Assembly: GCA_036400935.1 (NCBI GenBank)
Contig: DASWWW010000002.1
Coordinates: 137,529-201,528, forward strand
Length of the DNA stretch: 64,000 nt
Direction of reading: 5' to 3'
From: Minisyncoccota bacterium
GTDB lineage: Bacteria > Patescibacteriota > Minisyncoccia > Phycocordibacterales > UBA6065
Position 1 is the stretch's first letter; each line of letters opens with the position of its first letter. The notes under the pieces were generated by a model that was not told where the DNA came from, made no database searches, and saw nothing but the letters and a program-made list of their open reading frames with translations. Both the position numbers and the translations under genes were made by a program. This document shows, in pieces, positions 9,242-10,141 of this stretch.

Positions 9242-10141
9242 TTATTTCTTTGGTATGAGTGAGATTGCCTTTGCGATGATCGGGAGCATGTCCTCGTAGA
9301 AGTTGAGGCTCGCTATCTCGTCTGCCCGGAACCACTCGGCCTTGTCGAGGCCACCGGTCTCCTTGAGGGTGAGGGGCTTGTATGCCGCTTCGGCGAGGAA
9401 GTATGTCACCTGCTTGCGGAGCTTGCCCTTCTCTGGGTGCGTCGCCACGTACTCGTTCGAATCGACGGACTCGAGGAGCTTGATATCAATGCCGATCTCC
9501 TCCTTCACCTTGCGCATGGTGCCTTCCTCCACTGTTTCTGTCTCCAAAAGGCTTCCCTTGGAAAGAGTCCAGCGGCCGAAGACGTCGTGCACGAGGGCAA
9601 GATAGATGCGGCCGTCGTGTCGGGCGAACACGACCGCTCCGCCGAGCTTCACGATAGGCATCTTGTCGAAAGGAATGTTGAACTTGTCGTCCTTCTTCTT
9701 TGACACGGCGTCCTTGCCCGGCTCGCCCATCTCCTTGTATACGGATCCGAGCACGCCGTTCACGAACTTGCCCGAATTCTCGCCGCCAAAGCTCTTTGCG
9801 AGCTCGATAGCCTCGTTGATAGCTACCTTTGCAGGCACCTCGCCGCGATCGGCGAACAAAAGCTCGTAGAGGCCCATGCGCAAGACGTTCCTATCGATGA
9901 TGGAGATCTTGTTCAAAGGCCAGTCAGGGGCCGCCTTTGTGATGATCATGTCGATCTCGGGCTGCTTCTTGAGCACCCCTTCGCCAAGCTCCTGCATAAA
10001 GGCAAGATCGCTGTTTCCCGGCGCAAATTCTGCGGCGTCGCGGCCGATAGCATCAGAGAGGATGCTCGAATTTTGGTCGCGGAAATCCCACTCAAAGAGT
10101 GATTGGAGAACAACTGATCTTGCAAGGTGCCTGTTTGCCAT
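9242..10141 (-). CDS. nusB: NusB antitermination-factor domain fused to a C-terminal Nudix hydrolase domain
   Basis: N-terminal half: [14 protein letters not shown]...[33 protein letters not shown], which is NusB. C-terminal half: GGAVVF...[30 protein letters not shown], which matches the Nudix box GX5EX7REUXEEXGU. Confidence 0.8.
   Translation of the reverse strand: [299 protein letters not shown]

What the first reader, a model, noticed from the sequence alone, without database searches (positions are those of the whole stretch)
9242..10141. NusB-Nudix domain fusion
A single 299-aa ORF has an N-terminal half that is clearly NusB: [14 protein letters not shown] and [33 protein letters not shown]. 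After a Lys/Asp-rich linker (SKKKDDK), its C-terminal half carries a complete Nudix box, [23 protein letters not shown], which matches GX5EX7REUXEEXGU. NusB normally acts in the NusB/NusE antitermination complex on rRNA leaders. A covalently attached Nudix pyrophosphohydrolase suggests coupling of nucleotide or 5'-cap-like hydrolysis (NAD-cap, Np4A, (p)ppGpp) to the antitermination complex. I cannot confirm from memory that this architecture has been described.
Basis: partly seen in the sequence, partly recalled or inferred. Interest (0 to 1): 0.6.

Follow-up and report, generated by a model that had tools for sequence, protein, structure and literature searches.

The report
NusB fused to a Nudix domain
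A bacterial transcription factor that helps make ribosomal RNA (NusB) is permanently joined here to a nucleotide-pyrophosphatase-type (Nudix) domain; the fusion is real, occurs in at least 539 species genomes of ultra-small Patescibacteria and I found no paper describing it, but the enzyme's catalytic motif is incomplete in this genome.

Summary
The fusion is real. Window 9242-10141 (minus strand) is one 299-aa ORF with three parts:
- a bona fide NusB (aa 1-138; TIGR01951 scores 125.9 bits against a cutoff of 88);
- a conserved Lys/Asp-rich linker that is predicted to be disordered;
- a Nudix domain (aa 163-299; Pfam E = 1.6e-12).

78 of 80 related species genomes carry both domains in one uninterrupted ORF. 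At least 539 species genomes encode a relative of the Nudix domain. The 80 examined are Patescibacteria/Paceibacterota-type MAGs. The gene order rpmF, nusB~nudix, rnc is conserved.

The Nudix domain is of the ApnA-hydrolase type. Its best matches are Aquifex aq_158 and Thermus Ndx1 (TM 0.84-0.90). aq_158 is now known to remove caps and polyphosphates from RNA 5' ends.

Across 191 fused proteins this site changed at least 32 times. E215 and the ApnA-family signature residues W191, K195 and Y231 never change.

I think the domain is mainly a tethered module that binds a nucleotide polyphosphate or an RNA 5' end at the rRNA antitermination complex, with hydrolysis weakened here. A fully active enzyme is not excluded.

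I found no paper describing this architecture. It is a new variant of known parts and of moderate interest.

The parts
9242..10141 (-). nusB~nudix fusion gene (299 aa plus stop codon)
   Evidence: ORF list. Pfam finds NusB and NUDIX. An identical protein, P0001, is named 'transcription antitermination factor NusB' by NCBI.
9728..10141 (-). NusB domain, aa 1-138, seven helices
   Evidence: TIGR01951 scores 125.9 bits against a cutoff of 88.35. PDB sequence hits: T. maritima NusB 4e-22 and E. coli NusB 1e-17. The AF2 model shows helices 2-20, 25-39, 46-58, 60-70, 81-96, 104-119 and 121-138. R4 and R8 are at least 90% conserved and E93, F126 and G129 are invariant across 40 diverse fusions.
9656..9727 (-). 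Linker, aa 139-162 ([24 protein letters not shown]). It is predicted to be disordered but its sequence is conserved.
   Evidence: pLDDT is below 50 for residues 141-152 and pTM is 0.55. Mean pairwise identity is 0.63 in 191 fusions, the same as the Nudix domain.
9245..9655 (-). Nudix domain, aa 163-299, of the ApnA-hydrolase type
   Evidence: Pfam NUDIX E = 1.6e-12. The AF2 domain model has pLDDT 94.7. Foldseek top hits are aq_158 (3i7u, TM 0.84) and Ndx1 (1vc8, TM 0.85/0.90). The profile search against PDB gives aq_158 at 2.7e-13.
9488..9556 (-). Nudix box, aa 196-218: [23 protein letters not shown]
   Evidence: Read from the sequence. This is the only Nudix-box match in all six frames of the window.
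9509..9511 (-). Codon AAG for K211, replacing the canonical Glu of 'RE' (GAG would restore it)
   Evidence: Sequence. In homologues this site reads K68/E40 among 120, E44/K13/V9 among 78, and K10/V9/E7 among 37. There are at least 32 changes on a tree of 191 fusions, with root state E.
10210..10434 (-). rpmF (ribosomal protein L32), the upstream gene in the likely operon
   Evidence: Pfam Ribosomal_L32p. It is syntenic in most of the 80 loci.
8522..9220 (-). rnc (RNase III). It starts 21 nt after the fusion's stop codon.
   Evidence: Pfam Ribonucleas_3_3 plus dsrm. It lies directly downstream in 79 of 80 loci and in the distant relative P0198.
10442..10469 (-). Promoter-like site upstream of rpmF (TTGCCT-16-TATAGT with TG)
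   Evidence: Consensus scan. The number of sites is at chance level, so this is only suggestive.
8464..8493 (.). 13-bp GC-rich hairpin between rnc and the convergent small ORF. It is the likely end of the rpmF-nusB~nudix-rnc unit.
   Evidence: No minus-strand terminator-like site lies between rpmF and rnc.

Best explanation
This is a genuine NusB, and it was the only one found in the window. In well-studied bacteria NusB pairs with ribosomal protein S10 (NusE), binds boxA RNA and helps build the rRNA antitermination complex. Here a flexible but conserved linker of about 25 residues ties it to a small Nudix domain that descends from ApnA hydrolases of the Ndx1/aq_158 type.

I think the Nudix domain works mainly as a tethered pocket for a nucleotide with a polyphosphate chain. 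The most plausible ligand is the 5'-triphosphate or NpnN/NAD-type cap of the nascent rRNA leader. A free dinucleoside polyphosphate is the alternative. Hydrolysis would be slow or dispensable in this genome because the metal-binding Glu of 'RE' is Lys. Holding the 5' end while NusB-S10 holds boxA would help the complex loop the leader and present it to RNase III, which is encoded in the same operon.

Shown:
- the fusion and its spread;
- the identity of both domains;
- the flexible tether;
- the non-canonical, evolutionarily labile box set against invariant ApnA-family signature residues;
- the conserved operon.

Inferred:
- the ligand;
- attenuated catalysis;
- action at the antitermination complex;
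- the link to RNase III.
For: Anatomy:
- establish the ORF, the two domains and the tether.
- Both domains sit in one ORF in 78 of 80 species genomes, and at least 539 species genomes match the Nudix patterns.

The Nudix domain is under purifying selection:
- Mean pairwise identity is 0.64, against 0.72 for NusB.

The Nudix domain is of the ApnA-hydrolase type:
- PDB sequence and fold hits are aq_158, Ndx1, CT771, NUDT2 and Dcp2.
- aq_158 acts on RNA 5' ends (PMC13145063).

The catalytic set is relaxed:
- The canonical E..RE..EE pattern is present in 33/120, 40/78 and 5/37 fused proteins, against 21/26 stand-alone relatives.
- On a tree of 191 fusions, position 211 changed at least 32 times, 202 changed 19 times, 210 changed 17 times and 214 changed 12 times. 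E215, W191, K195 and Y231 changed 0 times.
- The invariant residues align with the ApnA-hydrolase residues W27, K31, Y67 and E51 of aq_158.
- By motif position, K211 corresponds to RppH E53, and E53A is inactive (PMC6061791).

Precedents:
- Non-enzymatic Nudix domains are known, in transcriptional regulation and channel gating (PMC5389931).
- The NrtR sensor domain is among the top fold hits.
- SuhB is an enzyme-fold subunit of the Nus complex whose enzyme activity is probably not its main role (PMC4807359).
- The antitermination complex boosts co-transcriptional RNase III cleavage (bioRxiv 10.64898/2026.03.17.712431).
- rnc is directly downstream in 79 of 80 loci and in a relative whose Nudix domain is 37% identical to the window's.
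Against: - E215 is invariant, and E214, R210 and E202 are 84-93% conserved in the core clade. About half of the species-level relatives keep a fully canonical box (40/78). Catalysis may therefore still be the selected function, with compensation in K211 variants by other conserved acidic residues (E230, E237, D266, D284).
- No ligand, RNA or partner was tested.
- No rRNA operon or boxA lies in the window.
- rpmF...rnc-smc is an ancient cluster in other bacteria (my own knowledge), so adjacency to rnc may be inherited rather than functional.
- I could not check whether a second, plain NusB exists elsewhere in these genomes.
Confidence: 0.42

Rival explanations
1. The Nudix domain is a fully active pyrophosphohydrolase delivered by NusB. 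[quoted passage not shown]
For: - The closest relatives are active ApnA hydrolases, and aq_158 is a broad RNA 5'-deprotecting enzyme.
- E215, the equivalent of aq_158 E51 whose Ala mutant is dead, is invariant in 191 fusions.
- E202, R210 and E214 are present in the window protein.
- 40 of 78 species-level relatives have a fully canonical box.
- Additional invariant acidic residues could substitute.
Against: - K211 replaces the 'RE' Glu. By motif position this is the residue mutated in the inactive RppH E53A.
- In MutT the same residue is the general base. This is my own knowledge and was not checked here.
- Positions 211, 202, 210 and 214 changed 12 to 32 or more times in a domain whose ApnA-family signature residues W191, K195 and Y231 never change.
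- Only 5 of 37 diverse fused representatives are canonical, and several lack both Glu of 'EE'.
Confidence: 0.3
2. The Nudix domain is a purely structural or docking module. It would be an extra subunit of the antitermination complex, comparable in role to SuhB, contacting RNA polymerase, NusA/NusG, S10 or RNase III. It would need no nucleotide ligand.
For: - SuhB shows that an enzyme fold can serve as a Nus-complex subunit recruited through NusB.
- The Nudix box is degenerate in many lineages.
- The conserved 'disordered' linker suggests a binding motif.
- A linkerless NusB-like-Nudix module has been reused as a unit in STAND-NTPase proteins.
Against: - The residues that stay invariant are the ApnA-hydrolase signature residues and the Mg-binding E215, not a new surface.
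- AF2 predicts no fixed interface with NusB (pTM 0.55).
- No partner was tested.
Confidence: 0.15
3. The fusion is an accident of genome compaction. Two neighbouring housekeeping genes (nusB and a general ApnA or 'house-cleaning' Nudix) merged and have no functional coupling.
For: - These are tiny genomes.
- Two contigs carry an in-frame stop exactly at the NusB end, which shows the halves can be separated.
- Stand-alone relatives exist in unrelated contexts.
Against: - The fusion is kept in one ORF in 78 of 80 species and down to about 31% full-length identity.
- The linker is as conserved as the domains.
- A free-standing house-cleaning enzyme would be expected to keep a canonical box, as 21 of 26 stand-alone relatives do.
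- The two-domain module recurs in a different protein family.
Confidence: 0.08
4. The ORF is a sequencing or assembly artefact: a missed frameshift or stop that joins two genes.
For: None in the window. One related contig (L077) and one short contig (L082) have an in-frame TAA.
Against: - A single tblastn segment covers aa 1-294/299 in 77 of 80 independent genomes.
- There are 78 uninterrupted ORFs.
- All 120 closest database proteins are about 299 aa long, and 119 of them have both Pfam domains on record.
Confidence: 0.01

Closest known systems
NusB (TIGR01951 / PF01029), e.g. E. coli and T. maritima NusB
   Same: - The N-terminal 138 aa pass the equivalog cutoff.
- The fold has seven helices.
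- The [14 protein letters not shown]...KFVNGVL core is near-identical to E. coli NusB.
- The N-terminal Arg residues are conserved.
   Different: Canonical NusB is a stand-alone protein of about 140 aa. This one carries a conserved linker and a 137-aa Nudix domain, and its gene sits between rpmF and rnc.
ApnA-hydrolase-type minimal Nudix enzymes: Aquifex aq_158 ('Omnivore RNA pyrophosphatase', PDB 3I7U/3I7V), Thermus Ndx1 (1VC8), CT771, NUDT2
   Same: - They give the best sequence and fold matches (TM 0.84-0.90).
- They share W-x-[FL]-[PS]-K-G, Y231, K243, Y247, W270 and Y282.
- They share the essential second Glu of 'EE'.
   Different: - Those enzymes are free-standing and have a canonical REUXEE.
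- Here the box reads RKVKEE and the domain is fused to NusB.
- Identity is only 21-27%.
Non-catalytic Nudix sensor domains fused to nucleic-acid-binding domains (NrtR: Nudix + wHTH, ADP-ribose sensor)
   Same: - A Nudix fold is joined to a domain that binds nucleic acid and controls transcription.
- The catalytic motif is relaxed.
- The NrtR Nudix domain is among the top fold hits (TM 0.78).
- Non-enzymatic Nudix roles are established.
   Different: - NrtR binds DNA and represses transcription initiation, whereas NusB binds RNA during elongation.
- The box here is only partly degenerate.
- No ligand is known.
SuhB in the E. coli rRNA antitermination complex
   Same: It is an enzyme-fold protein (inositol monophosphatase) that joins the Nus complex in a NusB-dependent way. 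Its enzymatic activity is probably not its main role.
   Different: - The fold is unrelated.
- SuhB is a separate subunit, not a fusion.
- No evidence here shows that the Nudix domain contacts RNA polymerase or NusA.
RsmB/Sun (NusB-like N-terminal domain + rRNA methyltransferase)
   Same: It is a precedent for a NusB-fold domain delivering an enzyme domain to rRNA.
   Different: RsmB models match only the NusB part and score far below their cutoffs (61.6 bits against 319). There is no methyltransferase domain.

Membership tests
NusB (transcription antitermination factor) | Sequence passes the curated equivalog model | tested here: met
   TIGR01951 scores 125.9 bits against a cutoff of 88.35. 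Pfam NusB gives E = 4.3e-35.
NusB (transcription antitermination factor) | All-alpha seven-helix fold | tested here: met
   The AF2 model has seven helices in aa 2-138 with pLDDT around 90. The best PDB sequence hits are all NusB.
NusB (transcription antitermination factor) | Binds S10/NusE and boxA RNA and joins the rRNA antitermination complex | not testable with these tools
   There is only indirect support. R4 and R8 are at least 90% conserved, and E93, F126 and G129 are invariant in 40 diverse fusions. No rRNA leader lies in the window, and the boxA consensus search was at chance level.
NusB (transcription antitermination factor) | Is the only NusB of the genome (housekeeping copy) | not tested
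   There is no second NusB in the 64-kb window or in the ±6 kb flanks of 80 loci. Whole genomes could not be read.
Nudix hydrolase superfamily (PF00293) | Nudix fold / Pfam domain above the gathering score | tested here: met
   48 bits against a cutoff of 21.1. The domain model has pLDDT 94.7, and Foldseek gives probability 1.0 to many Nudix structures.
Nudix hydrolase superfamily (PF00293) | Complete Nudix box GX5EX7REUXEEXGU | tested here: not met
   G196, E202, R210, E214, E215, G217 and I218 are present, but the Glu of 'RE' is K211. This position is E in only 82 of 191 fused homologues.
Nudix hydrolase superfamily (PF00293) | Mg2+-dependent pyrophosphohydrolase activity | not testable with these tools
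   This needs an enzyme assay. Sequence evidence is mixed.
ApnA hydrolase / aq_158-Ndx1 subgroup | Closest sequence and structural similarity, and shared subgroup residues | tested here: met
   The profile search gives aq_158 at 2.7e-13 and Ndx1 at 3.1e-11. TM scores are 0.84-0.90. W191, K195, Y231, K243, Y247 and Y282 align with aq_158 residues.
ApnA hydrolase / aq_158-Ndx1 subgroup | Catalytic Glu equivalent to aq_158 E51 / Ndx1 E50 | tested here: met
   E215 aligns with E51 and is invariant in 191 fusions. E51A is inactive.
ApnA hydrolase / aq_158-Ndx1 subgroup | Glu equivalent to aq_158 E47 ('RE') | tested here: not met
   K211 aligns with E47.
RppH (RNA pyrophosphohydrolase, NCBIfam PRK00714) | Passes the RppH equivalog model | tested here: not met
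   The best RppH model scores 19.2 bits against a cutoff of 118. BLASTP against E. coli RppH is not significant.
Non-catalytic Nudix sensor (NrtR-like) | Degenerate box with a retained ligand pocket, fused to a nucleic-acid-binding domain | tested here: inconclusive
   The box is partly degenerate and labile, and the ApnA-family signature residues are invariant. However, E215 is invariant and half of the close relatives are canonical. Ligand binding was not tested.
RsmB/Sun rRNA methyltransferase | NusB-like domain plus a methyltransferase domain | tested here: not met
   RsmB models score 61.6 bits or less against cutoffs of 269 or more, and they cover only aa 8-151.

The most novel reading that the evidence does not exclude
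NusB~Nudix is a new kind of antitermination factor that reads a nucleotide signal. The signal would be either the 5'-cap or triphosphate state of the nascent rRNA leader, or the level of dinucleoside polyphosphates in these nucleotide-scavenging bacteria. The factor would couple that signal to rRNA elongation and RNase III processing. The same two-domain module has also been captured as a sensor, or as an 'integrated decoy', by STAND/NLR-like NTPases with a HEPN effector. That would imply that phages of these bacteria target NusB~Nudix.
Probability: 0.12. Interest if true: 0.8.

Novelty: new variant of a known kind. Interest (0 to 1): 0.55.

Why it matters
NusB is one of the most conserved bacterial transcription factors. 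In the cases I know of it is a small stand-alone protein.

Here, in at least 539 species genomes, it is welded to a domain whose relatives remove caps and polyphosphates from RNA 5' ends. The 80 genomes examined all belong to the Patescibacteria/Paceibacterota, a very large and poorly understood bacterial group.

If the two halves work together, this would be the first physical link I know of between the rRNA antitermination machinery and RNA 5'-end or alarmone chemistry. It would also show how rRNA synthesis is organised in ultra-small, host-dependent bacteria.

The question can be tested with purified protein. Public databases currently label these proteins simply 'NusB', so the extra domain goes unnoticed.

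Tried and rejected
- **Frameshift or assembly artefact.** Rejected.
- **The N-terminal half is an RsmB-type domain.** Rejected.
- **The Nudix half is an RppH, NudC or MutT orthologue.** All models score far below their cutoffs.
- **First genome scan with a 25-sequence Nudix alignment.** It failed because no stretch was conserved enough. I repeated it with 8 closer sequences.
- **afdb50 fold search of the full-length model.** The library was not available.
- **boxA consensus search in the window.** It gave one 2-mismatch hit, as expected by chance. There is no rRNA in the window.
- **PADLOC scan of the window protein and the STAND-linked relatives.** Only weak hits to candidate families.
- **Model coordinates.** They are not exposed to scripts, so I could not map conserved residues onto the pocket. 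The reading of the conserved residues as a ligand pocket rests on alignment to aq_158 and Ndx1.
- **Literature searches.** Searches for NusB with Nudix, for NusB with CPR, and for 'NusB-Nudix' phrases found nothing on this architecture.
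Full report
**Observation**

The window holds one 299-aa ORF at 9242-10141 on the minus strand.
- Pfam places NusB at aa 7-136 (E = 4.3e-35) and NUDIX at aa 172-290 (E = 1.6e-12; 48 bits against a gathering score of 21.1).
- The NCBIfam nusB equivalog TIGR01951 scores 125.9 bits against a cutoff of 88.35.
- All RsmB, RppH, NudC and MutT models fall far below their cutoffs.

The one error concerns the Nudix box. [23 protein letters not shown] fits GX5EX7REUXEEXGU everywhere except the Glu of 'RE', which is Lys (K211, codon AAG at 9509-9511). 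A six-frame scan finds no other NusB or Nudix box in the window.

**Is the fusion real?**

An identical protein is in NCBI under the name 'transcription antitermination factor NusB [Candidatus Paceibacterota bacterium]'. The 120 closest database proteins (64-100% identity) are nearly all about 299 aa long. All but one have both Pfam domains on record.

I scanned one genome per GTDB species with two peptide patterns from the Nudix domain.
- The best 80 loci are all Patescibacteria/Paceibacterota-type MAGs. They include genomes labelled Wolfe-, Nomura-, Campbell- and Kaiserbacteria.
- In 77 of the 80 loci, one tblastn segment covers aa 1-294/299. 78 loci have both domains in one uninterrupted ORF.
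- The two exceptions are a contig end (L006) and an in-frame TAA (L077).

This rules out a frameshift artefact.

**Anatomy**

AlphaFold2, run with a 40-sequence alignment, gives two confident domains (mean pLDDT 89.8):
- seven helices at aa 2-138;
- an alpha/beta Nudix fold from about aa 163.

Residues 141-152 have pLDDT below 50 and pTM is only 0.55. The model is therefore two rigid bodies on a flexible tether with no predicted fixed interface.

The tether is nevertheless conserved. In 191 non-identical fusions, mean pairwise identity is 0.72 for NusB, 0.63 for the linker and 0.64 for Nudix. Both the Nudix domain and the linker are under purifying selection.

**The NusB half**

- PDB sequence hits are all NusB: T. 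maritima 4e-22, E. coli 1e-17, Aquifex 6e-17.
- Across 40 fusions down to 31% identity, R4 and R8 in the N-terminal basic segment, D83, L87, R88, P103, E110 and E113 are at least 90% conserved. E93, F126 and G129 are invariant.

I conclude that this is a working NusB. Whether it is the only one in the genome could not be checked.

**The Nudix half**

- By sequence, the best solved relatives are Thermus Ndx1 (an Ap6A hydrolase) and Dcp2.
- With a family profile, the order is Aquifex aq_158 (2.7e-13), CT771, Ndx1, human and C. elegans Ap4A hydrolases, then Dcp2.
- The domain model (pLDDT 94.7) matches aq_158 (TM 0.84), Ndx1 (TM 0.85/0.90), mycobacterial MutT1/Rv2985 (a diadenosine polyphosphatase), the ADP-ribose-sensing Nudix domain of NrtR, and other Ap4A hydrolases.

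A 2026 paper shows that aq_158 converts 5'-PPP and 5'-PP RNA to 5'-P. It also removes m7Gp3, Ap4, NAD, FAD and sugar caps. Its E51A mutant is inactive (PMC13145063).

In the profile alignment, aq_158 E51 corresponds to window E215 and aq_158 E47 (the 'RE' Glu) corresponds to K211. By motif position, the residue at 211 is also the one mutated in the standard inactive E. coli RppH E53A (PMC6061791). The RppH numbering comes from my memory of its sequence.

**Evolution of the catalytic motif**

A representative search with the Nudix domain alone found 1114 relatives (E ≤ 1e-3) among 1.84 billion cluster representatives, and 142 at E ≤ 1e-10. They include 37 full-length NusB-Nudix representatives, many fragments, and 26 stand-alone proteins of 128-154 aa.

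| Set | Canonical E202...R210-E211..E214-E215 present |
|---|---|
| Stand-alone relatives | 21 of 26 |
| Close fusions | 33 of 120 |
| Species-level fusions | 40 of 78 |
| Diverse fused representatives | 5 of 37 |

Some diverse fusions lack both Glu of 'EE', for example P0164, P0198, P0264 and P0270.

I built a neighbour-joining tree of 191 fusions and counted the minimum number of changes by Fitch parsimony.

| Position | Minimum changes |
|---|---|
| 211 | 32 (root state E) |
| 202 | 19 |
| 210 | 17 |
| 214 | 12 |
| E215, W191, K195, Y231 | 0 |
| Y247 | 2 |

The commonest replacements at 211 (K, V, A, G) are single-nucleotide neighbours of Glu. The never-changing residues are the signature residues shared with aq_158, Ndx1 and CT771.

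So the domain is conserved, but three or four of the canonical metal-binding and structural box residues are among its most changeable sites. That pattern is expected if ligand binding is the selected function and efficient hydrolysis is not. The invariant E215 and the many canonical members mean that catalysis is not excluded.

**Context**

On the minus strand the order is rnhB, rpmF (L32), nusB~nudix, rnc (RNase III), then a small convergent ORF, then smc. dnaE diverges upstream.
- rnc starts 21 nt after the fusion's stop codon.
- A promoter-like site precedes rpmF.
- There is no terminator-like site between rpmF and rnc.
- A 13-bp GC-rich hairpin follows rnc. These scans are at chance frequency and are only suggestive.

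The order rpmF, nusB~nudix, rnc holds in most of the 80 loci. It also holds in P0198, a distant member with a degenerate box.

In E. coli, the antitermination complex (NusA, B, E, G, S4, SuhB) stimulates co-transcriptional RNase III processing by bridging the ends of the rRNA (bioRxiv 10.64898/2026.03.17.712431). SuhB is an enzyme-fold subunit recruited in a NusB-dependent way, and its phosphatase activity is probably not its main role (PMC4807359). One caution: rpmF...rnc-smc is an old cluster in other bacteria (my own knowledge), so the adjacency may be partly inherited.

**Mechanism**

My preferred model has confidence of about 0.4.
- NusB binds boxA with S10 as usual.
- The tethered domain, derived from an ApnA hydrolase, holds a nucleotide polyphosphate. 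This is most plausibly the 5'-PPP or cap-like end of the same leader RNA. A free NpnN is the alternative.
- Hydrolysis is weak or dispensable in K211 variants such as this one.
- Capturing the leader at two points would stabilise the looped leader for RNase III.

Rivals:
- a fully active, NusB-delivered decapping or pyrophosphatase enzyme (0.30);
- a ligand-free docking module comparable to SuhB (0.15);
- an accidental fusion without coupling (0.08);
- an artefact (0.01).

**Novelty**

The architecture is present in public databases but is named only 'NusB'. Full-text searches found no paper describing it. The large review of the Nudix clan does not mention NusB. I rate it a new variant of known kinds: two known domains in an undescribed, widespread and conserved combination.

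**Side findings**

- A diverged NusB-like-Nudix module without the linker forms the C-terminus of STAND-NTPase proteins on two unrelated contigs.
  - P0267 reads HEPN (weak hit), NB-ARC, TPR, NusB, Nudix in one ORF.
  - P0189 lies next to a separate NB-ARC gene.
- Two contigs carry an in-frame TAA exactly at the end of NusB, with the linker and Nudix domain still in frame.

Noticed in passing
L090 98-3757 (P0267, 1219 aa); L091 1867-3567 and 3605-5338 (P0189, 577 aa): A diverged NusB-like-Nudix module, with the two domains abutting and no Lys/Asp linker, forms the C-terminus of STAND-NTPase-type proteins. P0267 reads HEPN_Swt1 (weak hit), NB-ARC, TPR, a stretch that looks to me like a cold-shock domain (no Pfam hit), NusB, Nudix in one ORF. 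P0189 sits directly after a separate NB-ARC gene, with a HEPN_Swt1 gene and a transposase nearby. The two proteins align at 31% identity over 573 aa (E = 4e-81). This looks like a defence-type NLR that has captured the module as a unit. PADLOC gives only weak hits.
   Followed up: partly
L077 4880-4882; L082 941-943: There are two independent in-frame TAA codons at the very end of the NusB domain ('VYK*LGEPGK' and 'GAV*KELGEPRK'). The linker and Nudix domain continue in the same frame and remain conserved. This could be sequencing error, a recent split, or stop-codon read-through that makes both NusB and NusB~Nudix.
   Followed up: partly
window 9656-9727 (aa 139-162): The linker is predicted to be disordered (pLDDT below 50) yet is as conserved as the Nudix domain (0.63 mean pairwise identity). 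GEPGK, KKK and P-x-x-x-MP are nearly invariant in close relatives, which suggests a short binding motif.
   Followed up: partly
P0212 (379 aa), P0253 (450 aa): The same Nudix subfamily occurs in other fusions. P0212 combines Sigma70_r4, a DnaA_C helix-turn-helix and Nudix, and its box also reads 'RK'. P0253 combines an EamA transporter with Nudix.
   Followed up: no
L081 5001-5453 (P0159): A stand-alone 150-aa relative with a canonical box lies among integrase, DNA methylase and Phage_rep_O-like genes. This looks like a phage or mobile-element context.
   Followed up: no
L086 (4945 bp): The contig is an inverted duplication with RNase III at both ends, probably an assembly artefact. One arm carries NusB (97 aa), a 134-aa ORF and rnc; the other carries P0225 (the 140-aa Nudix) and rnc. 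Neither the 134-aa ORF nor P0225 has a Pfam hit on record.
   Followed up: no
window 5920-8190 (minus strand): The SMC homologue is only 756 aa, whereas bacterial SMC is usually about 1,100-1,200 aa (my own knowledge). The SMC_N model spans aa 2-741. This short length is conserved in the related genomes, where tblastn covers aa 1-756.
   Followed up: no
window 8259-8459 (+) and 8464-8493: A 66-aa hydrophobic ORF lies convergent to rnc. It is followed by a perfect 13-bp GC-rich hairpin and a T-run, which is a likely terminator shared by the two convergent units.
   Followed up: no
L007, L008, L011 and about 30 other loci: Many MAG records titled 'uncultured Candidatus Saccharibacteria bacterium' carry the Paceibacteria-type locus rpmF, nusB~nudix, rnc, smc. 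The taxon in those titles may be a generic or wrong label.
   Followed up: no
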